A DNA stretch of 53,686 nucleotides from a virus (lineage: Duplodnaviria > Caudoviricetes), in the IMG/VR virus record IMGVR_UViG_3300023261_000002, positions 1 to 53,686 of that record; one strand, given 5' to 3'. The notes below the pieces were generated by a model. The model made no database searches, had not been told where the DNA came from, and saw only the letters and a list, made by a program, of their open reading frames with translations. The position numbers and the translations under genes were made by a program. Positions 4,132 to 43,642 of this stretch are shown piece after piece. Positions within the stretch are counted from its first letter, which is position 1, and each line of letters starts with the position of its first letter.

Positions 4132-4163
4132 CTTAGGGATTGACACTTAGCAAGGGACAAGTC

Positions 4164-6098
4164 ATGAAACTAATCCGTAGGTATAGATATTTTTCGGGCG
4201 GCAGGCCTGCTATTAGCGTTTCGCCTAGTTCATGGGACTTCGGTGCTACGTCTGTTGGCACGCCTGTTACAAAAGAGTTCACAATTCAAAATACGGGCAC
4301 GGCAACGCTTACCATTGGTGATAGAAGCTACCCAAGTGGTTATAGCGAATCCGTTGCCTTGAGCAGCGCGAGTTTAGCGCCCGGTGCTAGCGCCACATTC
4401 ACGGTGCAAGCGACTGCGGTAACGGGGCAAATATTTAGTGGCAATATTTCGATTGCGAGTAATGCGGCGAGTAGCCCGACACTGGTAGCGGTTACAGTGA
4501 ACGTGACGCATCTGTTTGAGGATGAGTTTATCACCGCAGATGCCGCGCCACTCACTAGCCCACGCACTGCTGAACCGGGGCCGGGTAGCTGGACAGTAAC
4601 CAATGGCGCTAATTTGTCCATTAGTAATGGAAAGCTAGTGCGTTCAGGTACGGCAACATTGGCCTCTGTTGCCACTTACGCACGAACGAATCTAGCTTTT
4701 TACATGCGCCACTTAGCAACCGCTGCCGATGGGGCTTTAATTGGCTTCTCTGCAAATGGTATCCATTTACAAAGCGGCCTTACCATCGGCATTGCATCAG
4801 CTGCGCCAACAACAGTCGGAACGGGGATTTTTGTCTTTATAGATGGCCTATTCCCCAACTCTTGGGTTGATGTATTAGTGATTGAGCGCCCTTCAGGCGG
4901 TGTTTGGATGTACTTGCGCGGCGCGAATTATGGGCGTTGGCAGTTGGTTTGGGTATCTATAGCTGAAACGTCTACTCCCCTTTATGCTTTTTACAAAGGC
5001 GCAGTTGGTGACGTTGGGTTGTCGGACGATGCGTTTCTAACTCTCGCTCCTAGCGAATTTTTAAGCCAATTTGGGAATGCTTTGCACTATGAAGCTTCCC
5101 CCGTTGCAGGCTTAACAAGCGCGGCGGCAAAGGTATTTCAAGAGATAAGCTGGACACCTGCTAGCGCTGAAATCCTTGAGATGACCTTAAACGAAGTTGA
5201 CTCAAACAATAAGATTATTCTGCGCTGTAATCAAGCAGGCTCAACAATTGCCCTGATTAGCAAAGTCGCAGGCGTAGAAACAAGTTTGCAAAGCGCCGCG
5301 CAGACGTGGACAATTGGTAGCCCATACCGCGTGATTATGGTCAATCATCATTACTTGGGCGGTACACGCCTTAATGCTGTGGTGAACAACAATACGCTTT
5401 TAGCCGTTGCCTCTCCGATTACCCCCACAATGGCTTATGCGACAGGCTGTAGAATATCAGGATTCACAACGGCTACCGACTGGGCTGTCTGGCAAGTTGA
5501 ACCAATAGAATTGCCTGCGCCATTTAGTGACACGGGTTTTAGTCAGTTCTGGACATACGGCGATAGTAAAACCGATGCTTACAAGGTACAGGCGCGTTTA
5601 ACGACATTACTTGAGGACGATAGCGGTAATCGCTGGATTTACGATAGCGTGGCACGTTCAGGCTATACGGTTGCATTGCAAGCTGCACAAATTGCCACCG
5701 ACTTGGCAAATGTTGCGAGTTCGGTCAATCCGTCTTTTGTGATAATTAATCTAGGTAGTAATGACGCAGGGTCTTTGCCATCAGAAGCGACTTGGAAAGC
5801 CAATTATCGCATTATCATCGAGGCGATACACGCCAAATGGTCTAACGCCACAATCTATCTTGCCAAGCCTGTGCGATTATCAGGTGCGCCACCGAGTACA
5901 CCCGTTGCGGCGGTTGCTACCATGCACGGTTACATCGATGGACTTATTGCTGAGTATGCGTATGTCGAAGAAGGGTTTGATGAAATAGACCTCGAAAACG
6001 GCGATGGATACGTGACCTATTTAGCGGATATTACGCATCCGAATAATGCAGGTTACGCGCAATGTGCTGTTTTACAAATGACAGCAATGGGCTTGTGA
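4164..6098 (+). CDS. Ig-like (ASH/choice-of-anchor-D-like) + beta-sandwich + SGNH/GDSL esterase; probably virion-associated
   Basis: N-terminal 'ISVSPSSWDFG..FTIQNTGTATLTI'; SGNH blocks 'YGDSKT', 'LGSND', 'DITHPN'; ATG 4164 preferred over TTG 4140. Confidence 0.75.
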   Translation: MKLIRRYRYFSGGRPAISVSPSSWDFGATSVGTPVTKEFTIQNTGTATLTIGDRSYPSGYSESVALSSASLAPGASATFTVQATAVTGQIFSGNISIASNAASSPTLVAVTVNVTHLFEDEFITADAAPLTSPRTAEPGPGSWTVTNGANLSISNGKLVRSGTATLASVATYARTNLAFYMRHLATAADGALIGFSANGIHLQSGLTIGIASAAPTTVGTGIFVFIDGLFPNSWVDVLVIERPSGGVWMYLRGANYGRWQLVWVSIAETSTPLYAFYKGAVGDVGLSDDAFLTLAPSEFLSQFGNALHYEASPVAGLTSAAAKVFQEISWTPASAEILEMTLNEVDSNNKIILRCNQAGSTIALISKVAGVETSLQSAAQTWTIGSPYRVIMVNHHYLGGTRLNAVVNNNTLLAVASPITPTMAYATGCRISGFTTATDWAVWQVEPIELPAPFSDTGFSQFWTYGDSKTDAYKVQARLTTLLEDDSGNRWIYDSVARSGYTVALQAAQIATDLANVASSVNPSFVIINLGSNDAGSLPSEATWKANYRIIIEAIHAKWSNATIYLAKPVRLSGAPPSTPVAAVATMHGYIDGLIAEYAYVEEGFDEIDLENGDGYVTYLADITHPNNAGYAQCAVLQMTAMGL

Positions 6099-6148
6099 TA
6101 GCTTCGCTAACTGTTGGTATAAGGCTCATTCTATAAGGCGAGGAAACG

Positions 6149-6559
6149 ATGAAAGACAATCTAACCATATCCAATTTCGTACTCGCCTTCGCTATCGTCT
6201 TTCTGCTACTACTTTTCGTCTATCTGGATGGCACAGAGGCAAGTGAGGCACGTTTGCGCTATACCCTAATTGACAAGCGCGCCTCATTCCTATTCAGCAA
6301 TTATGATAGCTTGCCATTCACAATTAATCGTGAAATGTGCTGGAACGATGTTCAAGGCTTTTGTGATGTTGAAGGAAGTACGGACGAGCTTTACACTCTG
6401 ATTGACTGGCAGATGCAAGCCTACGGCGCAATATACGAAGATGAAAGCGGTGCGTGTTTCTGGTGGATGTATCAAGCGGAGTGGGGCGAAGACGGCAATC
6501 CACACGTTGCAGAGCATTATTGGATTACTTGCCCGACATTAGATATTCCAGAGCTTTAG
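6149..6559 (+). CDS. Hypothetical exported/membrane protein
   Basis: Hydrophobic N-terminal signal or TM segment; RBS GAGGA; upstream TGGTATAAG. Confidence 0.6.
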   Translation: MKDNLTISNFVLAFAIVFLLLLFVYLDGTEASEARLRYTLIDKRASFLFSNYDSLPFTINREMCWNDVQGFCDVEGSTDELYTLIDWQMQAYGAIYEDESGACFWWMYQAEWGEDGNPHVAEHYWITCPTLDIPEL

Positions 6560-6573
6560 CTAGTCAGTAGGGC

Positions 6574-6648
6574 TAGATGCCTTACTTAGAGCATGTTAGC
6601 GGCGGCGCTATCCCCTCCGTTGTTAGCATGTTCTAAGTAGCGCGTCTA
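6574..6648 (+). other. About 30-bp RNA hairpin with anti-SD loop
   Basis: Stem 6583-6605/6617-6639 plus 6574-6580/6642-6648; loop CGCTATCCCCT. Confidence 0.75.
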
Positions 6649-6680
6649 CACAAAAACGAATACAATAAGGGGATAGGATT

Positions 6681-7439
6681 ATGTCATGGAGTGCATTCTT
6701 GGAAACAATACCACCTGAAACGATGCTAGGGTTTACCATAACATTCGTTGGGATAATTTTTGCTGCTTTAGGTGGCGCAGGCGTTTTATTTCGCAACTGG
6801 TTTTTAGGCCGTTTGGAGATGGAACGTAAAACGAACGAACAGGCGATAGAAACCGCAAAAGCGAAAGTTGACTTGGATAGGCTTGATATTCAAAATCAGC
6901 TTGACCAGACCCAAAGCAGTCGTGAAATGCTACGTTTGCAAATGTCGGATAATGCCGAAAACCGCAAGGCTTTTCTCTCATTACTGGATACTATGCGTCA
7001 GGATATGAATTTACGTGATGCCCAACACGAGAAACACTTGGGCGAAATTACAGCCTCTTTTCGTGGTATTGAGGGTTTAGCCGCAAGCACTCTGGAATTG
7101 CTAAAAAGCAGTAAGGAGACGGGTGAGGCCATGAGTATCGGGCAGCGCAAAGTTTTAGACCAGAATGAGGAAACCCATCGCAAGCTAACCGAAATTACCA
7201 GCGATGTAGCGGCTATTGTGATAAAGCTAGAAAGTTTAACTGTTGGGCGTGCTGGCGATAGGCGCGTGATAGAAGAAATTCAGACATCGCTTTCTCAGTT
7301 ATTGAAAGTAGTCACCCAACTGGATAGCGCAAATTTGAAAATCGCTGTTTCTACAGCGCTAGAGAAAACCCAACCGCTTGAGATAAACGAAGTGACAGAA
7401 CAAAACAAAGAGTTTCAGGGGAAGCATGAGGGGCAATAA
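6681..7439 (+). CDS. Single-TM coiled-coil membrane protein (possible lysis accessory)
   Basis: TM at about aa 15-37, then a long coiled coil; RBS AGGGGA. Confidence 0.55.
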   Translation: MSWSAFLETIPPETMLGFTITFVGIIFAALGGAGVLFRNWFLGRLEMERKTNEQAIETAKAKVDLDRLDIQNQLDQTQSSREMLRLQMSDNAENRKAFLSLLDTMRQDMNLRDAQHEKHLGEITASFRGIEGLAASTLELLKSSKETGEAMSIGQRKVLDQNEETHRKLTEITSDVAAIVIKLESLTVGRAGDRRVIEEIQTSLSQLLKVVTQLDSANLKIAVSTALEKTQPLEINEVTEQNKEFQGKHEGQ

Positions 7440-7450
7440 GCCCCTCTTAA

Positions 7451-7966
7451 TCACTCAAATCTAGCAAATTCCCCATGATATTTGATAGCCGCTTTGCAGT
7501 ACGCTTCGTAAGCCTCTTGGGGTGTATCGAAATATCCGAGAGCGATTTTCTTTTTATTCACGTTGATTTGCGCCTTATACTTACCATTAGGATGTAAGTA
7601 AACCCCTTTATACCCACATTTGTTATTGCTGCAAATTTTCCGATTTGCCATATTTTGGCCGTTAGTTGCCAGTCTAAGATTTTCTCTGCGATTATCTAGC
7701 CCATTTAGGTTAATATGGTCAACCATCTCGCCTTTTTTGAGTTTGCGCCCCAACATTCGCTCCATAATAACGCGATGAATCCGAACTGTTTGTCTTCTAT
7801 TGATGGAAATACGTACTAGACGTTTTGCATATTGGACATTCACACCTTTTACAGCTAAAACACTCCAATCTACCTCTGCCAAATCCGCATCGCAATCATC
7901 CACTATTGTCACATATTTGCCGAAATTCTTTTTAGCTGTTTTGCCTAACACGATTTCTATAACCAT
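7451..7966 (-). CDS. HNH homing endonuclease with C-terminal AP2 domain
   Basis: 'VDHINLNGLDNRRENLRLAT..QN' HNH motif; 'GYKGVY..YKAQI..LGYFDTPQEA..AY..AA' AP2 motif. Confidence 0.92.
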   Translation of the reverse strand: MVIEIVLGKTAKKNFGKYVTIVDDCDADLAEVDWSVLAVKGVNVQYAKRLVRISINRRQTVRIHRVIMERMLGRKLKKGEMVDHINLNGLDNRRENLRLATNGQNMANRKICSNNKCGYKGVYLHPNGKYKAQINVNKKKIALGYFDTPQEAYEAYCKAAIKYHGEFARFE

Positions 7967-8202
7967 TTCTTGCCTATCCTTTGATTAAGATGTACAATGG
8001 ATAGCATAAAGCCTTCCTCAAAATTGGCTTATTGCGAACGCGCCCCTAAGCGCGTTTTTGCTTTATGCTACAGTCTAATTATAGCAGAAAACTGTGTTAT
8101 ACTCAAATAAAATCAGTAGAAATCTATTTTGCTGATTATCGCGCTTATGCGCCTCTTGAGCTTGCCCGTTTAACTATCCAATTAGAACAAAGGAAACTAC
8201 CA

Positions 8203-8721
8203 ATGACTAAAAACCACGCTGTATTCTTTATCCTTATCCTTGTGCTATTCGCCCTCCCCTTTGCTGCTATGGCGCAGGAAGGCGAAATTGCGCCTGCCGA
8301 TGAGGTAGCATTGTTTGCTATCCCTCCGATTTTGCTAGGCTTGATGACACTGAATAACCGCAGTACAGAAGCACTTAAGCTATATCTCGCAAGCGCTAAG
8401 TTACCATTCACGCCCCCTGCCGATGTTCGTAGCTTACTTGTCCTTTTATTCTCTATTGTCTTTGGGATGGCAAGCGCCGCCGTTACACCTACTGCCCTAG
8501 ATTGGTTAGGTGCTTCCTTCAATCCGATTGCCGCCGTTGTGGTGACGGGCTTTGTTGTATCGCTCGGTGCTGCTGCTTTCCAGATGGTTATGAGCTTGCT
8601 TGCAGGCTTGGGTAACAAATCGGTATATTCGACAACAACTACAATTAGCGCCCCACCTGCTGACAGCGCCGCGCCTAAAGAGGCTATGGCTGCTGTATCG
8701 GCACAAGTGGCAAAAGGTTAA
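8203..8721 (+). CDS. Multi-pass membrane protein, holin-like
   Basis: Signal-like N-terminus plus about 3 TM segments; AAGGA RBS before ATG 8203. Confidence 0.55.
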   Translation: MTKNHAVFFILILVLFALPFAAMAQEGEIAPADEVALFAIPPILLGLMTLNNRSTEALKLYLASAKLPFTPPADVRSLLVLLFSIVFGMASAAVTPTALDWLGASFNPIAAVVVTGFVVSLGAAAFQMVMSLLAGLGNKSVYSTTTTISAPPADSAAPKEAMAAVSAQVAKG

Positions 8722-8726
8722 ACAGA

Positions 8727-8756
8727 AAGACCCCTCACAATGAGGGGTCTTTTTTG
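8727..8756. terminator. Bidirectional rho-independent terminator
   Basis: AAAGACCCCTCA-CAA-TGAGGGGTCTTTTTT between convergent units. Confidence 0.85.
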
Positions 8757-8840: not shown

Positions 8841-8906
8841 GTAGTCTAGCCTCATCCACTTGCTAGCTCACGTCTCTCCGATTGACTGCTGAGAGCTTCC
8901 TCCTTG

Positions 8907-8977
8907 CGATGAATACGGGATTTGAACCCGTGACTCCACTTAGACAGAGTGGTGTTTTACCCCTAAACCAATTCACC
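8907..8977 (-). tRNA. tRNA-Asp (GTC)
   Basis: Cloverleaf GGTGAAT/ATTCATC, D GTTT/AAAC, anticodon arm CCACT-CTGTCTA-AGTGG, T ACGGG-TTCAAAT-CCCGT, discriminator G; CCA not encoded; unusual U37. Confidence 0.88.
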
Positions 8978-9013: not shown

Positions 9014-9016
9014 TAA

Positions 9017-9105
9017 TGGACTTTGTGGGAGTCGAACCCGCTTCAACAGCTTTCGCCGTTTTACCTGCGTTGTACACCGCAGAAGCATTCCGAATGCAAA
9101 AGCCC
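9017..9105 (-). ncRNA. Non-canonical tRNA-like element B (G3:U70, A73; 8-nt loop with GUA; long variable arm)
   Basis: GGGCUUU/AAAGUCC-A acceptor; GCAUU-CGG-AAUGC; CUGCG-GUGUACAA-CGCAG; AACGGC-GAAA-GCUGUU; GCGGG-UUCGACU-CCCAC. Confidence 0.6.
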
Positions 9106-9112
9106 ATAGTTG

Positions 9113-17689: not shown

Positions 17690-18526
17690 ATGACTGAATA
17701 CAAGGTTATCGAAAAACACAGAGTAGTCTATGAGAAACAAGAACCGACATATTACTCAAAAATGCCGAAAATGGCGCTTGAAGAATTAACGCCCTACGAA
17801 TTAGCACTCTATGCAAATTACAAGCAAACAGCTAGCGAGAATGGGGCGGCGTTCAAAAGCAATAAAACACTCTCCAAAGAATGCAAAATGAGCATCCGTA
17901 TGATTCAAGAGTGTAGAAAGTCCCTTGAGACCAAAGGCTTTATCCATTGTACTTACGAATCGAATGAGCAAGGCGTAGTTACATCATCCGTGATTGTACA
18001 AATTGTGGACATTTGGGAACTAAACCATAAGCGCTATTCCAAGAAAGACCCCATGCAGGTGGTGCATACCCCCCATGCACATGATGCACACCCCCATGCA
18101 GGTGGTGCACCCAAAGAAGAACTTAATAATAAAGAACCAAAGAAAGAAAAAGATATTGCGCCTAAAGTCGCTAGCAATGGAAAAGCCTTACCCAAAGAAA
18201 AGAAACCTGCTGAGTATTTAGCTGATGCAATGGGTATAGCTTTAGTAAAGGCCGATTGGAGCAACTATACCAAAGTAGCCAAGACACTTAACGATTCAGG
18301 CGTTAGCTGTGATGAGTTCATTGGGTATGTCCTTGAAGTAAAGAAACAGGCGGCGGCGCAAAAGTGGGAGCTATCGGTCAATAGCCTTGTTTCAAACGGA
18401 CGTGTCTCGAAATACATCACCCAGCGCGATGCTTACAAAGTAGCGCCTAAGCACCATAGCACTAACAACTCGCAAGACTTAACCGCCCAAGCCATGCATG
18501 AGATTTTGAAAGGTCAGAAGTCATGA
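17690..18526 (+). CDS. Replication initiator (wHTH, lambda-O-like organisation)
   Basis: 'SNKTLSKECKMSIRMIQECRKSLETKGFI' HTH; internal iterons; upstream of the helicase. Confidence 0.75.
   Translation: MTEYKVIEKHRVVYEKQEPTYYSKMPKMALEELTPYELALYANYKQTASENGAAFKSNKTLSKECKMSIRMIQECRKSLETKGFIHCTYESNEQGVVTSSVIVQIVDIWELNHKRYSKKDPMQVVHTPHAHDAHPHAGGAPKEELNNKEPKKEKDIAPKVASNGKALPKEKKPAEYLADAMGIALVKADWSNYTKVAKTLNDSGVSCDEFIGYVLEVKKQAAAQKWELSVNSLVSNGRVSKYITQRDAYKVAPKHHSTNNSQDLTAQAMHEILKGQKS
18049..18109 (+). repeat. Three 18-bp iterons (putative origin)
   Basis: CCCCATGCAGGTGGTGCA 18049-66, CCCCATGCACATGATGCA 18071-88, CCCCATGCAGGTGGTGCA 18092-109; A-rich tract follows. Confidence 0.75.
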
Positions 18527-20055
18527 ACATGAAAGCATTTTCTATAGAGGCGTGGCAACAAACCGCCGATTACATCCTAGCCCCATTGGTTGCCGAGGAA
18601 GGGCTTGGTTTGGGGCACTCTCATTACTGGAAAACGGTAGAAAACCAAGTCTTGGCGATGCACTTTCCAGAGGGGCAGTGGAAAACGGTTTATTTAGCCC
18701 TTCAAGACTTAATTATCAGCCAAAGGGCTATTCACATGACAACCCTACAGAATGCGCTATATGGGCAAGTATCGCCTGAATATATCGCGATTCTATTCAC
18801 ACTCTGCCAGAAGAATAGCACGCTGCTCAATGGGGTATTCGATGCCAACCTAGCTACCCTGCGTAACTTTGGGGAACGCAACTACGCCATAGGCAAGCTT
18901 AACGCTGGCATTAGCGCGCTCACAGCAGGGGATAAGCGTGGGCAAGAGGGGGTTATCTCGGATACAATCGCTAGCCTCATGACTAGCGGCGCTGAAACCA
19001 TTCAAGGCGAAACAGCCGAGAGTATGGCGAATGACTTTGAAAGCTTTATGAACGATGCCCCACAACGCACAATCAAGACGAATGTGGATATTGTGGATTA
19101 CTGGACGGGCGGTATTGCAGTTGGGGAATTTATGGCAATCGTGGGTGCGATGAAACAGCGCAAAACCACGCTGTTACTCAATATGCTAATTAACATGGCA
19201 CGACAAGGGCATAGCTGTAGCTTGATGATGTTTGAAAGCAATAAGCGCATGATTAACGCCGCAATTGTCGCCATGCTTGGTGTTGAATGGGTTTGGAATA
19301 TGGGCTACTACGGCAAAGCAGATTGCAACGCCAACGGGGTGATTACAGGCAACTGCGAACAGATTTGGGTAAAGTCCTTAGTCAAGCTCCAAAAGAACTT
19401 TTTCACATTAGGCCGTTATCGCGCTGAAGCTGTGCGTTATGGCATTAGCGAACTCAAGAAACTAGAAAGCAATTTGCGGATATATGATAGAAGTAAAGAC
19501 GGCGGCGCGCTCACAGATACCGCTAGCGCCTACCGTTTGGCGCTTCGAGACAAGGCGCTTTATGACACCGAATTTCTAGCGCTAGACCATGCACAACGCA
19601 TTGCTGAGGAGGGGAAAACCGATTATGAAATTCTTCTAAAAGTAGTGCCATTCATGGAAGCCCTAGCGCGGCGCGAAGATATTGCAGTTTGCCTGCTCGC
19701 CCAACTTGCTACCGACAAGGCCGAGGGCACAGGGGATAGTCATTTTAGTGGAGTAAGAGGTGGGGCAAAATTGGATGAAGCTGTCGATTCGATGTTTAGT
19801 ATTGTATATAGGGGTAAATCGGAAAACGGGCGCTATCCCAACGATGTACTCAAGATTACAGCACAGCAATCGCGCTATGGGGATGGTGGGGCAGGCACAA
19901 GCGCTTTTGTAGCAATTGACCCTAATTCGGGATGGTTCCCACACGGCGGCAAAAAGTTAAGCGCTGTGCATCAAGACGGGGGCAATGTTTTGTTTCCTGA
20001 TACGCGTAAGCCCTCCGATTATGTTAGCAGCAAGTATGACGAAAGTGAGGACTAA
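18523..20055 (+). CDS. DnaB-like SF4 replicative helicase
   Basis: 'GGIAVGEFMAIVGAMKQRKTT' Walker A variant, 'MMFESN', 'ALDHAQ', 'LLAQL', 'QSRYG'. Confidence 0.8.
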   Translation: MNMKAFSIEAWQQTADYILAPLVAEEGLGLGHSHYWKTVENQVLAMHFPEGQWKTVYLALQDLIISQRAIHMTTLQNALYGQVSPEYIAILFTLCQKNSTLLNGVFDANLATLRNFGERNYAIGKLNAGISALTAGDKRGQEGVISDTIASLMTSGAETIQGETAESMANDFESFMNDAPQRTIKTNVDIVDYWTGGIAVGEFMAIVGAMKQRKTTLLLNMLINMARQGHSCSLMMFESNKRMINAAIVAMLGVEWVWNMGYYGKADCNANGVITGNCEQIWVKSLVKLQKNFFTLGRYRAEAVRYGISELKKLESNLRIYDRSKDGGALTDTASAYRLALRDKALYDTEFLALDHAQRIAEEGKTDYEILLKVVPFMEALARREDIAVCLLAQLATDKAEGTGDSHFSGVRGGAKLDEAVDSMFSIVYRGKSENGRYPNDVLKITAQQSRYGDGGAGTSAFVAIDPNSGWFPHGGKKLSAVHQDGGNVLFPDTRKPSDYVSSKYDESED

Positions 20056-21012
20056 GTGAATACGCCGTCTAAGTTTTTTCAAGAGTTATACCGTAGCGTC
20101 ACGCATGGCTATGCCGAAATTCGCTTGCTACATCACACAGGCGATATTAGCCTAGCTAAGAAAATCTATCGCCCTGCTATGAGTATTCATGAATGCAATT
20201 TTGATTACCTAACTGAGATGAATGAACAGGGCTACCATATCTATCATCGTGTCAATATCTCAGAAAAACCGCAAAGCAAGAAAGCGGATATAAGCCAAGT
20301 AGTCGCGCTATGGCTTGAGATTGACAATAACGATAGCAGCATCGAGGAACGCTTGATTGAATACCACTTTCCGCCAACTGCTGTGATTCACAGCGGTTCA
20401 GGATACCATGCTTATTGGTTGCTAAAAGAACCTCAAATCATTGATAGTCAACGGGCGCTTTTGGAACTGGAGCGCACGCTAGAGGGCATGATTTTAGATT
20501 GGGGTGCGGATAGTGGGGCAGATAAGCACACGAAAGATATAACGCGCATTCTGAGAACGCCGCATTTTTACAATATCAAAGCGAAATATGCCCCAGATTA
20601 TCCCCAAGCACGCATTGTTTGGTATGACGATTCACAGGGGGATAGGTATAAGTTTGCCCACTTGCACAAGCGCTATGCCCCTTTAGGCGCGCCAATTACA
20701 CCCCCTATCCGCCGCGCATTGCCTGTGCTAAACCGCAATGATAAGCCCAAATGGATACAAAACTATCTCGAAACAGGGGAAGGTGAGGGCAACCGTAACC
20801 AGCGCTTATTCGTTGTAGCGCGTTGGTTCTGCGATGTTGGCAACAAATCGGCTGAAGTAGAGCAAGATTTAATTAGTCGGGCGCTCGCTGATGGGCTTTC
20901 CCAAGCGGAGGCTGTAGCAACAATCCGCAGCGCATGGGCACAAGCGCCAAACCCTGCCAACAGTTTACCTAGTCACATGAGGCGCATTATTAGCTTAGAG
21001 GATAACGAATAG
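20056..21012 (+). CDS. RepB-like (AEP) primase with PriCT-type C-terminal domain
   Basis: 'ALWLEID', 'PPTAVIHSGSGYHAYW', 'DITRILRTP', 'GEGNRNQRLF..EAVATIRSA'. Confidence 0.82.
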   Translation: MNTPSKFFQELYRSVTHGYAEIRLLHHTGDISLAKKIYRPAMSIHECNFDYLTEMNEQGYHIYHRVNISEKPQSKKADISQVVALWLEIDNNDSSIEERLIEYHFPPTAVIHSGSGYHAYWLLKEPQIIDSQRALLELERTLEGMILDWGADSGADKHTKDITRILRTPHFYNIKAKYAPDYPQARIVWYDDSQGDRYKFAHLHKRYAPLGAPITPPIRRALPVLNRNDKPKWIQNYLETGEGEGNRNQRLFVVARWFCDVGNKSAEVEQDLISRALADGLSQAEAVATIRSAWAQAPNPANSLPSHMRRIISLEDNE

Positions 21013-21020
21013 GGGATAGC

Positions 21021-21416
21021 ATGAAAACAATTGAAATGTACACCGATGGCGCGGCTATTAGCAATCCGAACGGTTTTGCAGGCGCTGGCATTGTCTTATT
21101 GTATAATGGCGTAAAGAAAGAATTTGCCATTCCATTAGGGATTAATAGCAACTTTCGGGCGGAACTATGCGCGATTATCGAGGGGCTAAAGCTTTTGAAA
21201 GAACCTTGTACCGTTCACTTATTCTCGGATGCACAAGTGGTTATTGATATCATCAACGGGGATAAGCAGGCAAGCTCTAATCTGGACTTATGGAAAGATT
21301 ATCGCTTTGCAAGTTCTGAGCATAAGGTTATCGCTACGTGGATACGCAAAGACTCGAATGAGTGGAATAAGGTAGCACACAAGTTAGCTAATCAAGCCGC
21401 ATATTCACAGAGATAA
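21021..21416 (+). CDS. rnhA: Ribonuclease HI
   Basis: 'YTDGA..NP..GAG', 'NFRAELCAIIEGL', 'LFSDAQ', 'NLDLW', 'N..AHKLA'. Confidence 0.85.
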   Translation: MKTIEMYTDGAAISNPNGFAGAGIVLLYNGVKKEFAIPLGINSNFRAELCAIIEGLKLLKEPCTVHLFSDAQVVIDIINGDKQASSNLDLWKDYRFASSEHKVIATWIRKDSNEWNKVAHKLANQAAYSQR

Positions 21417-21818: not shown

Positions 21819-21850
21819 AAAGCCTTGTGTCGCTTACGCAAGGCTTTTTT
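21819..21850 (+). terminator. Rho-independent terminator
   Basis: AAGCCTTGTGT-CGCTT-ACGCAAGGCTTTTTT. Confidence 0.75.
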
Positions 21851-21869
21851 GTTGCAAGTAGCAGAAAAC

Positions 21870-21902
21870 AAAAGCGGCCTAGTTATTCGCTAGACCGCTT
21901 TT
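21870..21902. terminator. Bidirectional terminator ending the minus-strand hydrolase gene
   Basis: AAAAGCGGCCTAG-TTATTCG-CTAGACCGCTTTT. Confidence 0.7.
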
Positions 21903-21953
21903 GCACAGGAAGGAAGTTTATGCGTCAATCGTTTACTCAATTACAGAATAAGG

Positions 21954-32152: not shown

Positions 32153-32833
32153 ATGACTACCCCACGAAAAATTTGCAATGGACACAAAACCGATGGCAGT
32201 CCCTGTACATCGCCATTCCCTATGGCTAATGGCAAGTGCAGAGCGCACGGCGGTGCTACCCCAAGAGGCGTAGATAGCCCTCACTTCAAAACAGGCAAGC
32301 ATAGCCTCTACTATCTGCCTACCAAGCTTAAGGCCATAGCGGAGAGTATCCCTGCCGAATTTGACAAAGATGTTTTGGCGCGCAATACGCTGCTCACCGA
32401 AGCATTCATACGCCAAAAGCTTGAACAATTGGAAGATGCGCCTGATTCCCGTGAGGCATGGGAAGGCTTGCGTAGTGATTTGGATAAGCTGATAGAAGCC
32501 TTCTCGAATGAGGATTATGGCAAGGTAGCTATTCGCTTGGATAGAATTAGCCGCCTTGTCGATGAGCGCATTTTGTATCACATGGGAGTAAGTGAGATAC
32601 GCCGTGATTTGGCAGAGCAAAGAGCTAATCAGAAGGCGATAGCCGATATTGAGTTCAAGGGACAAAATGCTATCCCAGTCTCGCAACTAGTTAAGTTTCT
32701 TTTGTCGATTACAGAGTTAGCAGGCGCGATTATCAGCAATCCAAAGGAACGATATGCTTTGTTTGACGGTATTGATAAGCTAATTGGCAATCCTGTGAGC
32801 AATGCAATTGTGGTGGATGAGAATGCAGATTAA
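32153..32833 (+). CDS. Terminase small subunit (HGGxSTG-type N-terminus)
   Basis: 'ICNGHKTDGSPC..PMANGKCRAHGGATPRG..FKTGKHS'; directly upstream of TerL. Confidence 0.75.
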   Translation: MTTPRKICNGHKTDGSPCTSPFPMANGKCRAHGGATPRGVDSPHFKTGKHSLYYLPTKLKAIAESIPAEFDKDVLARNTLLTEAFIRQKLEQLEDAPDSREAWEGLRSDLDKLIEAFSNEDYGKVAIRLDRISRLVDERILYHMGVSEIRRDLAEQRANQKAIADIEFKGQNAIPVSQLVKFLLSITELAGAIISNPKERYALFDGIDKLIGNPVSNAIVVDENAD

Positions 32834-34406
32834 TTCGGGCTTAGAAGCGCTGGCGAAAGCATGGCAGGACGTAAAACCGCACATTAATCCTGCCAACGAT
32901 GCTCCTGCGCCCTATACAAAGGAATGGAATCCGCTTGCCTTCATTCAAAACTATTTCTATACCTACGATACTGAAGATATTCTAGGCTTGCATCCTAGCC
33001 AGCTATACCCACTGCAAGAAGCATTGGCACGTTTGCCAGATGGCAGATTTAAGTATCATACGGTGCTATGGAGTTGGCCTAAGAAGTCAGCTAAAAGTAC
33101 AATCGTTGCCGCCGTAGTCGATTACTGTTGTCTCTTTAAGCCTAAGAGTAGTTGGAAACTTATCGGCAATGACTTAAAGCAGGCAGATAGTCGCGTGGGG
33201 CATTACTTGCGAGAGAATATCCGCATTGGGGCAAGGAAAGGCTATGCAGGCCAAGCGAATGACGGTTTAGCGATGCAGGCGATACGACAAGCGACTAAGA
33301 TAAGCGCAAGCAACTACAAGATTGTCTATCCCAACGCCTCGCAGATTGAAATGATTCCAATCGACCCCCAAGGTGAGGCTGGGGCGAATGATGACGGGAT
33401 TGTATTCTCAGAGTTATGGGGATGGCGGCATAAATCGCATGAGGCTATGTGGACTGAGATGACCATTAGCCCCAATCGCTACGGTTATGCCCAACGCTGG
33501 ATAGATACCTACGCAGGCTTTACAGGTGAAAGTCTGGTTTTAGAGCGCTTGTATGAGTCGGTGGTGAAAGAAAGCAACCGCCTTGATATGCCGCACAATG
33601 CCGAATGCTATACCGCTAATGGGGTATTCTGCTGCTGGGTGACTCAGCAACTACTCCCTTGGCAACAAATCCCCGAATACTATGAGAGCGAAAAAGCCGA
33701 TAAACACCCTGCCGAATATGCCCGTATTCATGAGAACAGGTGGACACAATCCGAACAGAGCTTTATTGACATTGCTTATTGGGATGCGTGTGCGGATACG
33801 CGCCCTTCAGAAGACGGCGGTATTTTGAAACATCAACAGCATGACGAGGTGATTATCGCGCTAGATGCTGCTGTAACAAGTGATTGTTTTGCGATGGTAG
33901 CGTTATCCAGAGATAGGCGATTCCCACCAAAATATGACAGCAATGGAGAACAGATTAGCCCTGAACATTTTGTTAGGCGTTATGCCCGTGCATGGTATCC
34001 GCCCAAGGGGGGTAAGATAGCGTTTGATGGTGAGGATAGCCCTAAGTCTGAGCTTAAGCGCCTGATTGCCGAGCATAATGTCTATTGCGTCACCTATGAC
34101 CCTTATCAATTGGAGTTCTTTGCAATGGAATGCTCACAGGAGCTTGATACATGGTTTGAGGAGTTTCCGCAAGGCACACAGCGCGAAATAGCGGATAAGT
34201 TCTTATTCGATGTTATTCGAGAGGGAAGGTTGGCCCATCATGGTACAGATGGCGAATTGAGAGCCCACATTCTCAATTCGGGCGTTAAAATCATTGGGGA
34301 AGATAAGCGCCTACGTATCATAAAGAAGAATGAAACCAGAAAGATAGATTTGAATGTGGCAATGTCAATGGCCTGCTATCAGGCATCAAAGGTATTGCCC
34401 AAGTAA
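32823..34406 (+). CDS. Terminase large subunit
   Basis: 'WPKKSAKST' Walker A variant, 'VFSELWG' Walker B, nuclease 'IALDAAVTSD', 'YDPYQ', 'KIDLNVAMSMA'. Confidence 0.88.
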   Translation: MQINSGLEALAKAWQDVKPHINPANDAPAPYTKEWNPLAFIQNYFYTYDTEDILGLHPSQLYPLQEALARLPDGRFKYHTVLWSWPKKSAKSTIVAAVVDYCCLFKPKSSWKLIGNDLKQADSRVGHYLRENIRIGARKGYAGQANDGLAMQAIRQATKISASNYKIVYPNASQIEMIPIDPQGEAGANDDGIVFSELWGWRHKSHEAMWTEMTISPNRYGYAQRWIDTYAGFTGESLVLERLYESVVKESNRLDMPHNAECYTANGVFCCWVTQQLLPWQQIPEYYESEKADKHPAEYARIHENRWTQSEQSFIDIAYWDACADTRPSEDGGILKHQQHDEVIIALDAAVTSDCFAMVALSRDRRFPPKYDSNGEQISPEHFVRRYARAWYPPKGGKIAFDGEDSPKSELKRLIAEHNVYCVTYDPYQLEFFAMECSQELDTWFEEFPQGTQREIADKFLFDVIREGRLAHHGTDGELRAHILNSGVKIIGEDKRLRIIKKNETRKIDLNVAMSMACYQASKVLPK

Positions 34407-40672: not shown

Positions 40673-41095
40673 ATGGACACGCCAACTATCTCAATTAAAC
40701 GTGCCGAGTGGCGCGAAACAGTACAGCATTGCTTAGACGAAATTGACGCGATACTCCCCTCCCCTAATTGGGATTACATTATCTTTGGTGATGAGTCCCA
40801 AATCGACAGCTTTAAGCCCCTACCCCTAAAGAATATCAAGCTATCGGCTACGCTATTCATGGAAATGCCGCCTGAAGAAAAGGGGCGCATTGTGATATTG
40901 CCCCGTTCCTACAAAGTCACTGTGACTGACTACGATGAGAATGAGAATCCAATTGGCTTAAAAAAGATAGATAAGCCCGTTTCCTTTCTGGTATACCATG
41001 CCAAGCGTAACCCATTCGATGCGCCGCAATTCCGACTTGCCACGCCTTCTTATGCCTATTTAATTAAGATAGTTGAGGATGAAAACAATGAATGA
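40673..41095 (+). CDS. Hypothetical protein
   Basis: AAGGT RBS; AT-rich promoter-like upstream region. Confidence 0.55.
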   Translation: MDTPTISIKRAEWRETVQHCLDEIDAILPSPNWDYIIFGDESQIDSFKPLPLKNIKLSATLFMEMPPEEKGRIVILPRSYKVTVTDYDENENPIGLKKIDKPVSFLVYHAKRNPFDAPQFRLATPSYAYLIKIVEDENNE

Positions 41096-41897
41096 ATTTC
41101 CGAAGATAGCACTACTCGTTATCACCTATAAAAGACTCGAAGTTCTCCAGAGAACCTTAGAAGCCTTGCGCGAAAACTTGCATTATCCTGCCGATAAGTT
41201 GCATATCGTGGTATCAGACGATAGCACGGGCGGCGGCTACATCGGCAAAATCAAGAAATTGAAAGTGTTAAAAGGTTGGGGCGCTACTGTACATGTTTTA
41301 GAAACGCCTTCACGCTCAGGTTGGGGGGCGCATGTGAACATAGCCCATGCCCATATCATGGCGCATATTGACCCAGATTATATTTTTTTCTGCGAAGATG
41401 ACTATGTACTAACAGAACCGATTGACTTGCGCGTTGGCGCGGCGCTTCTGGAAACACGGCCTAATATTGGCATGTTGCGCTATCGTGGTACGGCAGGCAC
41501 GCATGTGATTTATCATCAATTCGAGACCGACATTAGCGATTATGTTCCCGATTATGATGAGAACGCAGGGCAATCGGTAGGCAAGTTATCTTATTTGCAA
41601 CTAGATTCAGGTAGCCCGACATTGTACCTCTATTCACACGGGGCGCATTTGAAGCGCATGAAGCCCAAGCAGGGACACAAGGCATGGCATGAGCATTATC
41701 TGAATTACCCAGAGGGCTTAGTCCTCGGTCAAACTGAGGAAGCGGCGGCACACATCGCAAAAGATAGAATGAAACTTGACGGCGCGCCTGCGCTGGCGAT
41801 TTTGCCTGCTTACATTCGCATGGTGTTTCAGCACATCGGAGAGAGCTATCAAGGTAGTAGCGATGATATTGGCGATAAGATAGAAGCATTAGGATAA
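41088..41897 (+). CDS. Glycosyltransferase family 2-like (GT-A)
   Basis: 'IALLVITYKR', 'VVSDDST', 'FFCEDDY', 'FQHIG'. Confidence 0.85.
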   Translation: MNEFPKIALLVITYKRLEVLQRTLEALRENLHYPADKLHIVVSDDSTGGGYIGKIKKLKVLKGWGATVHVLETPSRSGWGAHVNIAHAHIMAHIDPDYIFFCEDDYVLTEPIDLRVGAALLETRPNIGMLRYRGTAGTHVIYHQFETDISDYVPDYDENAGQSVGKLSYLQLDSGSPTLYLYSHGAHLKRMKPKQGHKAWHEHYLNYPEGLVLGQTEEAAAHIAKDRMKLDGAPALAILPAYIRMVFQHIGESYQGSSDDIGDKIEALG

Positions 41898-41931
41898 GCG
41901 CTATAAACACAGCGCAATAGGAGAGAGAACA

Positions 41932-42123
41932 ATGAAAACCTACGTATTTATTATCCTAGATATCGAGATAACAGTTCCGCCTTATCGAAAATATGTGATT
42001 GCCGAAAGTGAACACGCTAACAACGAAGAAGCAGGGCGCGTAGTTATCTTGCTAGAATCAACGGGCTTAAAAGTCATTTCCGTTTATCCTAAAGACGCTC
42101 AGGTGTTTCTCAAAAAGCGATAG
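41932..42123 (+). CDS. Small hypothetical protein
   Basis: AGGAG RBS. Confidence 0.5.
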   Translation: MKTYVFIILDIEITVPPYRKYVIAESEHANNEEAGRVVILLESTGLKVISVYPKDAQVFLKKR

Positions 42124-42132
42124 GAGAGAAAA

Positions 42133-42750
42133 ATGATTAACAATCAAGAAATCAAAGGCGACGCGCCGCTATCGCCTTACACATCGGTTCCGGGTTGGGA
42201 AACGGAAGCGGAGCAAGGCGTACTAATTACAGTAATGCAGGCCGTAGATGATTTTGAATGCTACCCAACTATTGTTGAAATCGGTAGCGAAAACGGCATG
42301 AGCGCAAGCATTTTTGCTAAGTATGGACATGAAAACAGTAGCAATATTGTTTGCATCGAAATTGACGAAAATGCGAACTTCTGGCATAACCTACAAGTGC
42401 TAGGGCTTGATAGAAACATTATCCCTATCTATGGCAATAGCGCCCAAATGGACTGGCAAGTTGAGGCCAAGCGAATTGAAGTCAAGCAAGCAATTGACTT
42501 ACTCTTTATTGATGGTGACCATAGCTATAACGGGGCATTGGCCGACCTACGCAATTTCGCGCCTTTTGTTGCAAGCGGTGGCTACTTGCTTTTGCATGAT
42601 TGCGCTTGTGAAACCAACAAACTCCCCCACAAGCAGCACAGAGACGTGAGTGAGGCGCTTAACGTCTGGTTGAAAGAAGCTGGCAAGGAACTCGGTTTTA
42701 AGTGTCTATTCACAGTCGATAGCTTGATGGTATTTCGGAGGATGGCATGA
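42133..42750 (+). CDS. Class I SAM methyltransferase (Methyltransf_24-like)
   Basis: 'IVEIGSENGMS', 'IDLLFIDGDHSYNGALAD', 'GGYLLLHD'. Confidence 0.88.
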   Translation: MINNQEIKGDAPLSPYTSVPGWETEAEQGVLITVMQAVDDFECYPTIVEIGSENGMSASIFAKYGHENSSNIVCIEIDENANFWHNLQVLGLDRNIIPIYGNSAQMDWQVEAKRIEVKQAIDLLFIDGDHSYNGALADLRNFAPFVASGGYLLLHDCACETNKLPHKQHRDVSEALNVWLKEAGKELGFKCLFTVDSLMVFRRMA

Positions 42751-43313
42751 AACTTGATATAAACAACCCTCCGAAAGGGTTCAAAATTCACGCCTCAGAT
42801 GGCATAGTCGTTTTAATCCCTGTTGAGGATTGCGTTATTGTAACCAATAAAGAAACCGTGCAAAAAACCAACGGCATATCTGTCGATGTTCCCAAAGGTG
42901 CTAGGTTTTCGCTCTTTTGCCTATATGGTATTAGCGAATTTCACGCGCAATCGAAACCGATTGAAAAACTTGAAACTCCTGAAGGCTTTTCTCCTTTTGG
43001 GGGGATTTGGTACTTTGATATTGACGATGTTGATATTGAAACATCATCCGAAATAGAAACCATTTATGAAGATATGAAAGCGGATAAGCTAGGAACGCAC
43101 CTCTATGAGGGGCTAAAAACACAAAGCAATCAGATATTTTTTGTTGTGATAGAGCAGGAAGAAGGCAGTCGATATTACAACACACTTGAGATTGTCTCAA
43201 CAAAAGAGGCCGCGATAAAGCTTATCGAAAACAAAAAGCAGTTTCAAGAAAAACATAACTATAAACCCCATAAATTCACATGGTACATGCATAATATTTG
43301 GGAGTTGGAATGA
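42747..43313 (+). CDS. Hypothetical protein
   Basis: ATGA overlap; GGAGGA RBS. Confidence 0.55.
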   Translation: MKLDINNPPKGFKIHASDGIVVLIPVEDCVIVTNKETVQKTNGISVDVPKGARFSLFCLYGISEFHAQSKPIEKLETPEGFSPFGGIWYFDIDDVDIETSSEIETIYEDMKADKLGTHLYEGLKTQSNQIFFVVIEQEEGSRYYNTLEIVSTKEAAIKLIENKKQFQEKHNYKPHKFTWYMHNIWELE

Positions 43314-43642
43314 ATCCTAAACCGCCGCAAGAATTACCCTATCAGGAGCAAGTCCAGTTCTCGCTTGAAGCTATGCCAGCATTTCGAGATAGCGATGAAC
43401 CTTGTCAGGAAAACGATTGCGTTATTATCTTCATGCCACCACAAGGCACATTGTTAGCCGCCGCGCTTGGCTTTAGGAATTTCGGCTTTTTCATCGGACT
43501 TGTCATGTCCTTTGGCGCGCCATACGGCTTTGGAAAAGTCATGCACGTTGTGAATGGTACAGCATTCGTGTGGTATAGTACCTTCCCCACGCCAGAAGAT
43601 ACCGATATAGACACGGGAGTTATCTCACAAAATGGCAACTAA
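43310..43642 (+). CDS. Hypothetical protein
   Basis: ATGA overlap; hydrophobic central segment. Confidence 0.5.
   Translation: MNPKPPQELPYQEQVQFSLEAMPAFRDSDEPCQENDCVIIFMPPQGTLLAAALGFRNFGFFIGLVMSFGAPYGFGKVMHVVNGTAFVWYSTFPTPEDTDIDTGVISQNGN

What the first reader, a model, noticed from the sequence alone, without database searches (positions are those of the whole stretch)
6574..6683. 30-bp hairpin whose loop is the exact complement of the downstream ribosome-binding site
Seen: within the paired stems, all non-Watson-Crick pairs are G:U on the + strand, indicating selection on the RNA. Loop CTATCCCCT (6608-6616) is the perfect 9-nt complement of AGGGGATAG (6668-6676), the SD of the membrane gene at 6681. 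GCTATCCCCT also matches the RNase H SD AGGGGATAGC (21011-21020) over 10 nt. Inference: a pseudoknot translational switch timing a lysis-region gene, or a trans-acting anti-SD RNA.
Basis: partly seen in the sequence, partly recalled or inferred. Interest (0 to 1): 0.7.

Follow-up and report, generated by a model that had tools for sequence, protein, structure and literature searches.

The report
Phage leader hairpin masking a ribosome site
An unusually stable RNA hairpin in front of a phage membrane-protein gene carries a C-rich loop that can pair with that gene's ribosome-binding site, and a distant relative has the same arrangement, so it is probably a built-in brake on translation of a known general type.

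Summary
Window 6574-6648 folds on the + strand into a 29-31 bp hairpin with 7 G:U pairs, one C·C mismatch and an 11-nt loop. It does not form on the - strand. It is the most stable 90-nt fold in this complete 53.7-kb phage genome. [quoted passage not shown]

The only homologous locus with DNA is L002, whose downstream protein is 37% identical and whose upstream genes are unrelated. It has two + strand hairpins in the same leader. The one next to the gene has an 8-nt loop complement to its own, different SD region. A soil-run contig (X2) carries window 6567-6666 identically (100 of 100) between unlike flanks.

Best reading, about 0.5: a cis-acting anti-SD loop that holds down translation of an N-terminally anchored coiled-coil membrane protein. 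RNase III cleavage or hairpin opening may relieve it.

- Trans action on the RNase H SD gets no specific support.
- "Lysis gene" is unverified.
- No Rfam family matches.

I rate it a new variant of a known principle, of moderate interest.

The parts
6574..6648 (+). RNA hairpin: 29-31 bp stem with 7 G:U pairs, one C·C mismatch (6581/6641) and an 11-nt apical loop
   Evidence: fold and pair list; does not form on the - strand; most stable 90-nt fold in the genome
6606..6616 (+). Apical loop. Positions 6608-6616 are the C-rich anti-SD 9-mer and contain a UCCCC motif.
6649..6667 (+). A-rich spacer between hairpin and SD. It contains CAAAAAC, which is also present between L002 hairpin B and its SD.
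6668..6676 (+). Shine-Dalgarno region of the downstream gene. It is the exact 9-nt complement of the loop and ends 4 nt before the ATG.
   Evidence: duplex -14.3 kcal/mol; opening cost 4.2
6681..7439 (+). Regulated gene: a 252-aa protein with an N-terminal hydrophobic segment (residues 12-38) followed by coiled coil. It belongs to a family with an invariant QNQLDQTQS.REMLRLQ block. Function unknown.
6149..6559 (+). Upstream gene (136 aa, N-terminal hydrophobic segment). Its stop codon lies 14-16 nt before the hairpin base. It is not conserved in L002, so the hairpin goes with the downstream gene.
6567..6666 (+). A 100-nt block found letter for letter in a 288-nt contig of a second soil run (X2), with unlike sequence on both sides
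   Evidence: record 3: 0 other letters, 0 gaps; loose ends on both sides
6577..6636 (+). 19-codon ORF lying inside the hairpin (AUG at the stem base, AGGG 5 nt upstream). It may be a leader ORF or may be chance.
   Evidence: sequence
21011..21020 (+). SD of the RNase H gene, 10-nt complement of loop 6607-6616. Candidate trans target only.

Best explanation
The hairpin is a cis-acting element in the mRNA leader of the membrane/coiled-coil gene at 6681.

SHOWN. It is a very stable + strand RNA hairpin. Its unpaired C-rich loop is exactly complementary to the gene's Shine-Dalgarno region 52 nt downstream. A distant homologous locus keeps the same architecture with different sequence.

INFERRED.
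- Once the stem has formed, the loop pairs with the SD in a hairpin-type pseudoknot. The net gain is about -10 kcal/mol before the knot's loop penalty.
- This pairing out-competes 16S rRNA for the SD. Translation of this membrane protein then stays low even though it sits on the abundant late (tail) transcript.
- The same hairpin would also protect the upstream tail-gene message from 3' exonucleases.
- Whether the brake is ever released is open. My first candidate is RNase III cutting the roughly 30-bp stem, which would detach the loop from the message. My second is ribosomes opening the stem through the 19-codon ORF inside it.
For: STRUCTURE AND STRAND.
- 7 G:U pairs and 0 A·C in the window stem.
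- L002 hairpins A and B each have 4 G:U pairs. The + strand folds at -79.8 kcal/mol (z -8.1) against -57.3 (z -2.7) for the - strand.

UNIQUENESS. It is the top fold of the genome and occurs once in the genome.

COMPLEMENTARITY. The match is exactly 9 nt.
- 30 of 20000 downstream shuffles and 38 of 20000 loop shuffles reach 9 nt.
- It is the longest such match among 63 gene starts.

ENERGETICS. The duplex is -14.3 kcal/mol and the cost of opening loop and SD is 4.2.

INDEPENDENT REPLICATE. In L002 only the downstream protein is homologous (37% over 253 aa) and the upstream genes are unrelated.
- Hairpin B, next to the gene (2006-2078, 13-nt loop), has an 8-nt complement between loop 2041-2048 and 2087-2094, which covers the SD at 2090-2095. 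This match is reached by 315 of 20000 downstream shuffles and 301 of 20000 loop shuffles.
- The pairing extends 3' of the G-run in the window and 5' of it in L002. Complementarity is therefore kept while the sequence differs.

X2 CONTIG. The hairpin is identical, and after a 2-nt gap the G-run plus three bases (7 nt complementary to the loop) is kept before a start that reads MSLQE, like homologue P0004, which is 46% identical (start).

PRECEDENT. Unpaired UCCC(C) motifs pair with SD regions, block initiation and create RNase III substrates. Examples are the icaR 3'UTR (PMC3868564, passages read) and the RNAIII/Rsa loops (PMC2790875, passages read).
Against: - Only one independent homologous locus could be read. 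DNA for the other 8 homologues was out of reach.
- Ignoring the hairpin, by my own arithmetic about 0.26 such 9-nt complements are expected somewhere among 63 leaders. Two other genes show 8-nt matches. The significance therefore rests on the complement sitting exactly in the apical loop and on the L002 repeat.
- C-rich loops and G-rich SDs share a 4-5 nt core trivially.
- Geometry is tight. Nine base pairs must form from an 11-nt loop, leaving a 2-nt linker, and the 19-21-nt spacer must span a roughly 30-bp stem. The full 9 bp may not all form (inference; no pseudoknot program was run).
- In L002 the 9-nt spacer forces the weak lower stem of hairpin B to open.
- L002 hairpin A's loop matches a 7-mer that is buried in hairpin B (opening cost 9.1 kcal/mol), so not every loop has a usable partner.
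- The X2 match may be residual homology rather than selection.
- There is no expression, probing or cleavage data of any kind.
Confidence: 0.5

Rival explanations
1. The hairpin is only a processing or stability element at the end of the tail-gene message: an RNase III site, a 3' protective stem-loop, or a pause or terminator without a U-tract. The loop-SD match has no function.
For: The stem exceeds two helical turns. It lies just after the last tail-module genes. L002 hairpin A starts 6 nt after a tail-fibre-like gene's stop codon. The only Rfam near-misses are pre-miRNA-like hairpins, far below threshold. RNase III control of phage messages is established for T7 gene 1.2, but I saw only the title of Saito and Richardson 1981 in the reference list of PMC3074117. 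The mechanism is recalled.
Against: This reading does not explain the loop complementarity or its recurrence in L002. The upstream genes are unrelated in the two loci while the downstream gene is shared. No U-tract follows the stem, and the terminator scan does not call it. It is the only such hairpin in the genome, unlike the multiple RNase III sites of T7-like phages (the T7 comparison is recalled). This rival is compatible with the best explanation and differs only on whether the loop matters.
Confidence: 0.25
2. The hairpin is cut out or persists as a small stable RNA. Its loop acts in trans on several phage messages whose SDs carry the same G-run motif, such as RNase H at 21021 and the gene at 25011, and shuts them off late in infection.
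For: The loop has a 10-nt complement to the RNase H SD at -19.4 kcal/mol, stronger than the cis site at -16.0. Three genes (6681, 21021, 25011) share the AGGGGATA-type SD. The 9-mer is over-represented, with 4 matches against 0.22 expected. Trans-acting C-rich loops are known in S. aureus.
Against: The loop has 63 predicted sites at -14 kcal/mol or better, against 8-37 for 10 shuffled loops. Most lie inside genes and the cis site ranks about 18th, so there is no specificity for SDs. The site at 19731 is inside the helicase gene. No dedicated promoter or terminator was found. L002 offers no way to test trans targets.
Confidence: 0.07
3. It is a DNA-level feature: a conserved junction where phage modules recombine, or a target or by-product of the neighbouring HNH homing endonuclease. 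The RNA fold is secondary.
For: A 100-nt block is identical in a second soil run while both flanks are unlike. P0004, whose start matches that contig, is 46% identical overall yet shares an identical 18-residue stretch near its C-terminus with the window protein, which indicates mosaic exchange. An HNH-AP2 gene lies 800 nt away, and a homologue sits at a different position in L002.
Against: Seven G:U pairs would be A·C mismatches in the other strand, so as duplex DNA the palindrome is imperfect and strand-neutral selection is unlikely. L002 keeps the structure, not the sequence. A recombination junction and an RNA function are not exclusive.
Confidence: 0.06
4. The loop pairing activates rather than represses translation, as in the repZ pseudoknot of IncI plasmids. 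In this version, translation of the small ORF inside the hairpin remodels the leader.
For: A 19-codon ORF (6577-6636) starts at the stem base with AGGG 5 nt upstream. In the repZ system, translation depends on a pseudoknot formed upstream of the RBS (review PMC8383071, passage read).
Against: Here the pairing covers the SD G-run itself, which should exclude the ribosome. No comparable ORF with a clear start was seen in L002 hairpin B (reading). No antisense RNA is evident.
Confidence: 0.05

Closest known systems
icaR mRNA of Staphylococcus aureus: an anti-SD UCCCCUG motif in the 3'UTR pairs with the SD of the same mRNA (PMC3868564, passages read)
   Same: An unpaired UCCCC-type motif pairs in cis with a G-run SD. 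In icaR this blocks the initiation complex and creates an RNase III substrate. The window loop contains UCCCC and its SD contains AGGGG.
   Different: In icaR the motif lies 260 nt past the stop codon in the 3'UTR. Here it is the apical loop of a roughly 30-bp hairpin 52 nt upstream of the SD, so the pairing is a local pseudoknot. The host here is unknown and nothing has been tested.
C-rich (UCCC) hairpin loops of S. aureus RNAIII and the Rsa sRNAs (PMC2790875, passages read; PMC2837412, listing and abstract only)
   Same: Hairpin loops with an unpaired UCCC motif bind SD sequences and prevent initiation.
   Different: Those are separate trans-acting sRNAs with their own promoters and terminators. 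No such signals were found here, and the best partner is on the same message.
RNase III control of phage messages, such as T7 gene 1.2 and lambda int/sib (titles seen in the reference list of PMC3074117; mechanisms recalled)
   Same: A long intergenic stem in a phage polycistronic message, where cleavage could change how accessible a ribosome-binding site is.
   Different: Cleavage was not tested. This genome has a single such stem. T7 sites carry internal loops (recalled), whereas this stem is almost perfect.
repZ pseudoknot of IncI-alpha plasmid ColIb-P9 (review PMC8383071, passage read)
   Same: A hairpin loop pairs with a sequence at the RBS of the next gene to form a pseudoknot. A short leader ORF is involved.
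   Different: The repZ pseudoknot forms upstream of the RBS and activates translation, and an antisense RNA competes for the loop. Here the pairing covers the SD itself and no antisense RNA is evident.

Membership tests
Cis-acting SD-sequestering leader structure (translational operator or pseudoknot) | An anti-SD sequence on the same transcript, able to pair with the SD with favourable energy | tested here: met
   Exact 9-nt complement. The duplex is -14.3 kcal/mol against an opening cost of 4.2.
Cis-acting SD-sequestering leader structure (translational operator or pseudoknot) | Pairing is kept in homologues while the sequence changes | tested here: inconclusive
   Met in the 1 of 1 independent locus that could be read (L002 hairpin B, 8 nt). 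The X2 contig keeps 7 nt, but that may be residual homology. The 8 other homologues had no accessible DNA.
Cis-acting SD-sequestering leader structure (translational operator or pseudoknot) | The pairing lowers translation initiation | not testable with these tools
   This needs reporter, toeprint or probing experiments.
Trans-acting C-rich-loop sRNA (RNAIII/Rsa type) | An unpaired UCCC motif in a hairpin loop | tested here: met
   The loop 6606-6616 contains UCCCC.
Trans-acting C-rich-loop sRNA (RNAIII/Rsa type) | An independent transcript with its own promoter and terminator | tested here: not met
   No sigma-70-like promoter lies upstream and no terminator-like site lies at or after the hairpin. 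These are consensus scans only.
Trans-acting C-rich-loop sRNA (RNAIII/Rsa type) | Selective pairing with the SDs of target messages | tested here: not met
   63 sites at -14 kcal/mol or better, mostly intragenic. Only 3 lie at gene starts (6681, 21021, 25011).
RNase III processing site | A double-stranded stem of about two helical turns or more | tested here: met
   29-31 bp with one mismatch.
RNase III processing site | Cleavage by RNase III | not testable with these tools
   No RNA run holds the stretch. An in vitro assay is needed.
Intrinsic (rho-independent) terminator | A G+C-rich stem followed directly by a U-tract | tested here: not met
   The 3' flank is A-rich. The scan does not call it, whereas it does call other sites, and canonical terminators exist at 21821-21910 and near 8727-8750.
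Any curated Rfam family | A match at the gathering score | tested here: not met
   The only window hit at gathering is a tRNA. Around the hairpin and in L002 there are only sub-threshold miRNA-precursor matches, with E of 0.035 or more and bit scores of 12-23 against cut-offs of 34-100.

The most novel reading that the evidence does not exclude
The stem is a pre-miRNA-like RNase III substrate. Cleavage late in infection both unmasks the membrane-protein gene and releases a small, stable anti-SD RNA. The loop of that RNA then silences early genes carrying the same SD motif (RNase H at 21021, the gene at 25011). One hairpin would thus act as a two-way temporal switch, and it is exchanged between soil phages as a 100-nt cassette.
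Probability: 0.06. Interest if true: 0.75.

Novelty: new variant of a known kind. Interest (0 to 1): 0.45.

Why it matters
Phage late operons are long polycistronic messages, and how individual genes on them are dosed is mostly unknown outside model phages. This element would be a compact, sequence-programmable way to hold down one membrane protein on an abundant late transcript.

It uses the same C-rich-loop-against-SD logic known from staphylococcal regulatory RNAs, but built into a phage leader as a local pseudoknot. It belongs to an uncultivated soil phage lineage with no GenBank phage match (DNA or protein searches; the terminase search found one weak Pelagibacter-phage hit) and has no Rfam family. 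It is small enough to test with simple reporter constructs.

The 100-nt block that is identical between otherwise unlike phage contigs suggests that such regulatory cassettes move as units.

Tried and rejected
RELATED DNA NOT FOUND.
- blastn and tblastn against GenBank phages found nothing for the region, the two flanking proteins, or L002. The terminase gave one weak Pelagibacter-phage hit at 22% identity.
- The search for related loci in viral contigs found no relative with the downstream protein, the upstream protein, the terminase, or alignment A1. Genome contigs gave none. Metagenome contigs gave only L002.
- Exact-pattern scans for the loop plus upper stem of the window hairpin found 0 in viral contigs and 0 in genome contigs. 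Scans for L002 hairpins A and B found 0 and 0 in viral contigs.

RNA EVIDENCE. No RNA holder was listed for window 6100-7500. Only contigs could be laid, so no transcript ends or cleavage sites could be seen.

CONSENSUS FOLD. fold_alignment of the window hairpin with L002 hairpin B failed. MAFFT put the stems out of register, so the 15-pair consensus at -5.2 kcal/mol means nothing and is not used. The three-way alignment has 16 invariant columns of 131.

PROTEIN FUNCTION.
- Pfam and PHROGs gave only sub-threshold hits for the 252-aa protein.
- A PDB profile search hit designed coiled coils only.
- The ESM Atlas best score was 0.87, under the 0.9 bar. It is a DUF2746 lead only.

CONSIDERED AND DROPPED.
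- Intrinsic terminator: there is no U-tract.
- Riboswitch or other known RNA family: no Rfam match.
- Genome end or packaging site: the direct terminal repeats are at the contig ends.
- Antitermination RNAs of the HK022 put type: L002's tandem hairpins resemble them only superficially (recalled) and no test was available.

One literature search failed on term syntax and was not repeated.
Full report
WHAT THE WINDOW IS

The window is a whole virus record of 53,686 bases with direct terminal repeats. Pfam and PHROGs show a tailed phage.
- Terminase lies at 32802-34406.
- Minor tail proteins lie at 22-1143 and 1454-2392.
- A tail-fibre-like protein with a GDSL esterase domain lies at 4140-6098.
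- A replication block (helicase, primase, RNase H) lies at 17690-21416.

The + strand late genes run from about 32 kb over the record's end to about 6.5 kb. The finding sits just past the last tail genes. It lies between a 136-aa gene (6149-6559) and a 252-aa gene (6681-7439). After that come a convergent HNH-AP2 endonuclease gene (7451-7966, - strand), a multi-span membrane protein gene (8065-8721) and two tRNA genes.

The DNA and protein searches of the region, its flanking proteins and L002 matched no GenBank phage; the terminase gave only one weak hit (22% identity, Pelagibacter phage).

CHECKING THE OBSERVATION

The + strand RNA 6560-6690 folds at -47.6 kcal/mol, with z = -4.0 and 0 of 200 shuffles as stable.

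The pair list gives:
- 6576-6580 paired with 6642-6646;
- a C6581·C6641 mismatch;
- 24 contiguous pairs, 6582-6605 with 6617-6640;
- an 11-nt loop at 6606-6616.
The centroid adds two more pairs at the base, 6574-75 with 6647-48. Seven of the 29 MFE stem pairs are G:U.

On the reverse strand those seven become A·C mismatches. The hairpin is not predicted there: -33.6 kcal/mol, z = -1.7, and 12 of 200 shuffles as stable.

In a scan of every 90-nt window (step 10) on both strands, this is the most stable local fold in the genome, at -45.6 against -39.5 for the next. The sequence occurs once in the genome.

The 9-mer at 6668-6676 has its exact reverse complement at 6608-6616. It also occurs on the + strand at 19731 (inside the helicase gene) and at 21011 (directly before the RNase H start). 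That is 4 matches against 0.22 expected, and 0 of 100 shuffles reach 4.

IS THE LOOP-SD MATCH MORE THAN CHANCE?

- Shuffling the 38 nt between hairpin and start codon (dinucleotide-preserving) gives a complement of 9 nt or more to the loop in 30 of 20000 trials.
- Shuffling the loop gives one in 38 of 20000 trials.
- As an empirical control I took 63 gene starts. For each I found the longest exact complement between its SD region (-20 to -4) and the 128 nt further upstream. One gene had none of 4 nt or more; 19 had 4 nt, 29 had 5, 9 had 6, 2 had 7, 2 had 8 and 1 had 9. The single 9 is this gene.

By itself a single 9-mer among 63 leaders is not remarkable. My arithmetic expects about 0.26. What makes it unlikely is that it falls exactly in the 11-nt apical loop of the strongest hairpin in the genome, and that the arrangement recurs elsewhere, as described next.

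SD sequences in this phage are varied (AAGGAG, GGGAG, GAGG and others). Only three genes (6681, 21021, 25011) use the AGGGGATA form.

THE HOMOLOGOUS LOCUS L002

The 252-aa protein has 9 relatives at 40-58% identity in the large protein collection. All have an N-terminal hydrophobic segment and an invariant QNQLDQTQS.REMLRLQ block. DNA could be obtained for only one further relative, L002, a 3,093-base metagenome contig.

A BLASTP comparison of four window proteins with four L002 proteins shows homology only for the downstream gene (37% over 253 residues). The upstream genes are unrelated. Whatever is conserved in the leader therefore travels with the downstream gene.

The 180-nt leader of L002 folds at -79.8 kcal/mol on the + strand, with z = -8.1 and 0 of 200 shuffles as stable. 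The - strand gives -57.3 and z = -2.7. The leader contains two long hairpins:
- Hairpin A (1928-1999) has 26 pairs, 4 of them G:U, and a 12-nt C-rich loop.
- Hairpin B (2006-2078) has 27 pairs, 4 of them G:U, and a 13-nt loop.

Loop B positions 2041-2048 are the exact 8-nt complement of 2087-2094. That stretch covers the SD (AGGGAG, 2090-2095), which ends 7 nt before the ATG at 2103. A complement of 8 nt or more arises in 315 of 20000 shuffles of the downstream 27 nt and in 301 of 20000 loop shuffles.

The spacer between hairpin B and the SD shares CAAAAAC with the window's spacer.

The paired bases differ between the two loci. In the window the helix extends 3' of the G-run (the SD's GAUAG against the loop's CUAUC). 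In L002 it extends 5' of it (AACA against UGUU). Complementarity is thus kept while the sequence is not. That is the pattern expected of a selected interaction, but it rests on a single independent comparison.

Loop A of L002 matches a 7-mer at 2067-2073 (220 of 20000 downstream shuffles; 388 of 20000 loop shuffles). That 7-mer is buried in hairpin B, with an opening cost of 9.1 kcal/mol against a duplex of -9.9. I give it little weight.

A SECOND SOIL RUN

Two public runs hold words of window 6100-7500. X1 is probably the source sample.

In X2, which comes from another study, a 288-nt contig matches window 6567-6666 with 0 differences and 0 gaps. Its 152 nt before and 36 nt after do not match. 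The downstream loose end carries the G-run plus three bases, which is 7 nt complementary to the loop. It then has a start codon whose first five codons read MSLQE, the N-terminus of homologue P0004 (46% identical to the window protein).

P0004 also shares an identical 18-residue stretch near its C-terminus with the window protein. These phages are therefore mosaics, and the hairpin block is one of the exchanged or retained pieces. This shows the element is real and circulating. It adds little independent evidence for the pairing, because the retained 7-mer may simply be the edge of the shared block.

ENERGETICS AND GEOMETRY

The 9-bp duplex is worth -14.3 kcal/mol. Freeing the loop and SD from their alternatives costs 4.2. 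Because the stem is so stable, the anti-SD can reach the SD only as a loop-to-downstream pairing, that is, a hairpin-type pseudoknot.

By my reasoning (no pseudoknot program was run), this leaves a 2-nt linker on one side, and the 19-21-nt A-rich spacer must run the length of a roughly 30-bp stem. That is feasible but tight, so perhaps only 7-8 of the 9 pairs form. In L002 the 9-nt spacer would require the weak, mismatch-rich lower part of hairpin B to open.

WHAT IT MOST LIKELY DOES

I commit to a cis-acting translational brake. The C-rich loop occupies the SD of the membrane/coiled-coil gene. This keeps its translation low on a message that otherwise encodes abundant structural proteins. The hairpin would also shield the upstream message from 3' decay.

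What is shown:
- the structure;
- its strand specificity;
- its uniqueness in the genome;
- the complementarity;
- its recurrence in one distant relative.

What is inferred:
- that the pairing forms;
- that it lowers initiation;
- that it can be relieved.

For relief, the obvious candidate is RNase III, since a near-perfect stem of this length is its typical substrate. Cutting the stem would separate the loop from the message. A second candidate is the 19-codon ORF (6577-6636) that starts at the stem base behind an AGGG. Ribosomes reading it would melt the stem. Neither candidate could be tested.

RIVAL READINGS

- Pure processing or stability element with an incidental loop match. This cannot be excluded. 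It fails to explain the L002 repeat or the linkage to the downstream rather than the upstream gene.
- Trans-acting anti-SD RNA. The 10-nt match to the RNase H SD favours it (-19.4 kcal/mol). However, a genome-wide duplex scan finds 63 sites at -14 kcal/mol or better, against 8-37 for ten shuffled loops. Most are inside genes, and no promoter or terminator for a separate RNA was found.
- DNA-level recombination junction. The X2 mosaic favours it. The G:U asymmetry argues that selection acts on the RNA.
- Activating pseudoknot of the repZ kind. This is unlikely because the pairing covers the SD itself.

COMPARISON WITH KNOWN SYSTEMS

The logic matches the UCCC(C) anti-SD motifs of Staphylococcus aureus.
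- In icaR, a UCCCCUG motif in the 3'UTR pairs with the UAGGGGG SD region of the same mRNA. This blocks the initiation complex and creates an RNase III substrate (PMC3868564, passages read).
- RNAIII and most Rsa RNAs carry unpaired UCCC motifs, in RNAIII in three hairpin loops, that bind SD sequences (PMC2790875, passages read).

This element differs in three ways. It is a phage leader element, the motif sits in the apical loop of a very long stem only 52 nt from its target, and the pairing must therefore be a pseudoknot.

Other comparisons:
- The repZ pseudoknot is an activating counterpart (PMC8383071, passage read).
- RNase III control of T7 gene 1.2 is a phage precedent, but I saw only its title in a reference list and otherwise recall it.
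- No Rfam family matches.
- I found no description of this element in the four answered literature searches I ran.

VERDICT

The cis interpretation is plausible and has one independent comparative confirmation. The trans interpretation and the 'lysis timing' story are unsupported. It is a new variant of a well-known regulatory principle in an uncultivated soil phage, of moderate interest, and readily testable once the leaders of the other family members can be read.

Noticed in passing
window 6577-6636 (+): A 19-codon ORF (MPYLEHVSGGAIPSVVSMF) lies wholly inside the hairpin. Its AUG is at the stem base, AGGG lies 5 nt upstream, and the start is 18 nt after the upstream gene's stop codon. It could be a leader ORF that opens the stem, or it could be chance.
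   Followed up: partly
window 6567-6666; run X2 contig; P0004: A 100-nt block is identical in a second soil run while both flanks are unlike. P0004 is 46% identical overall but shares an identical 18-residue stretch near its C-terminus with the window protein. This indicates mosaic exchange around and within this gene.
   Followed up: partly
L002 1928-1999 and 2006-2078: The homologous leader has two tandem long hairpins, both with C-rich loops, and two copies of an ACAGGG(G/A) box (2064-2070 and 2088-2094). This looks like a duplicated hairpin-plus-box module.
   Followed up: partly
window 9016-9106 (-): ARAGORN calls a 91-nt tRNA-like gene with a four-base anticodon (gtac) next to tRNA-Asp (8906-8977). 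Rfam at gathering reports only the tRNA-Asp. It may be a long-arm tRNA with an odd anticodon loop.
   Followed up: no
window 6149-8721: Three membrane-type proteins follow the tail genes: 136 aa with one N-terminal hydrophobic segment, 252 aa with one segment plus coiled coil, and 218 aa with about three segments. Pfam and PHROGs found no endolysin or holin family anywhere in the genome, so the lysis genes remain unidentified.
   Followed up: partly
window 7451-7966 (-); L002 3-209 (-): An HNH-AP2 homing-endonuclease gene converges on the 252-aa gene with a 11-nt gap. A homologue lies at a different position in L002, upstream of the tail-fibre-like genes. The endonuclease is therefore mobile relative to this locus.
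   Followed up: no
window 6668, 21011, 24996: Three genes (6681, RNase H at 21021, and the PHROG 5706 protein at 25011) share an AGGGGATA-type SD, which is unusual among the 63 starts listed.
   Followed up: partly
window 41073-46337: Glycosyltransferase and methyltransferase genes, including a 901-aa multi-domain glycosyltransferase, are embedded in the structural module.
   Followed up: no
window 21821-21910: A pair of canonical hairpin-plus-U-tract terminators lies between the convergent genes ending at 21707 and 21954. The host therefore uses ordinary intrinsic terminators, unlike the hairpin at 6574.
   Followed up: no
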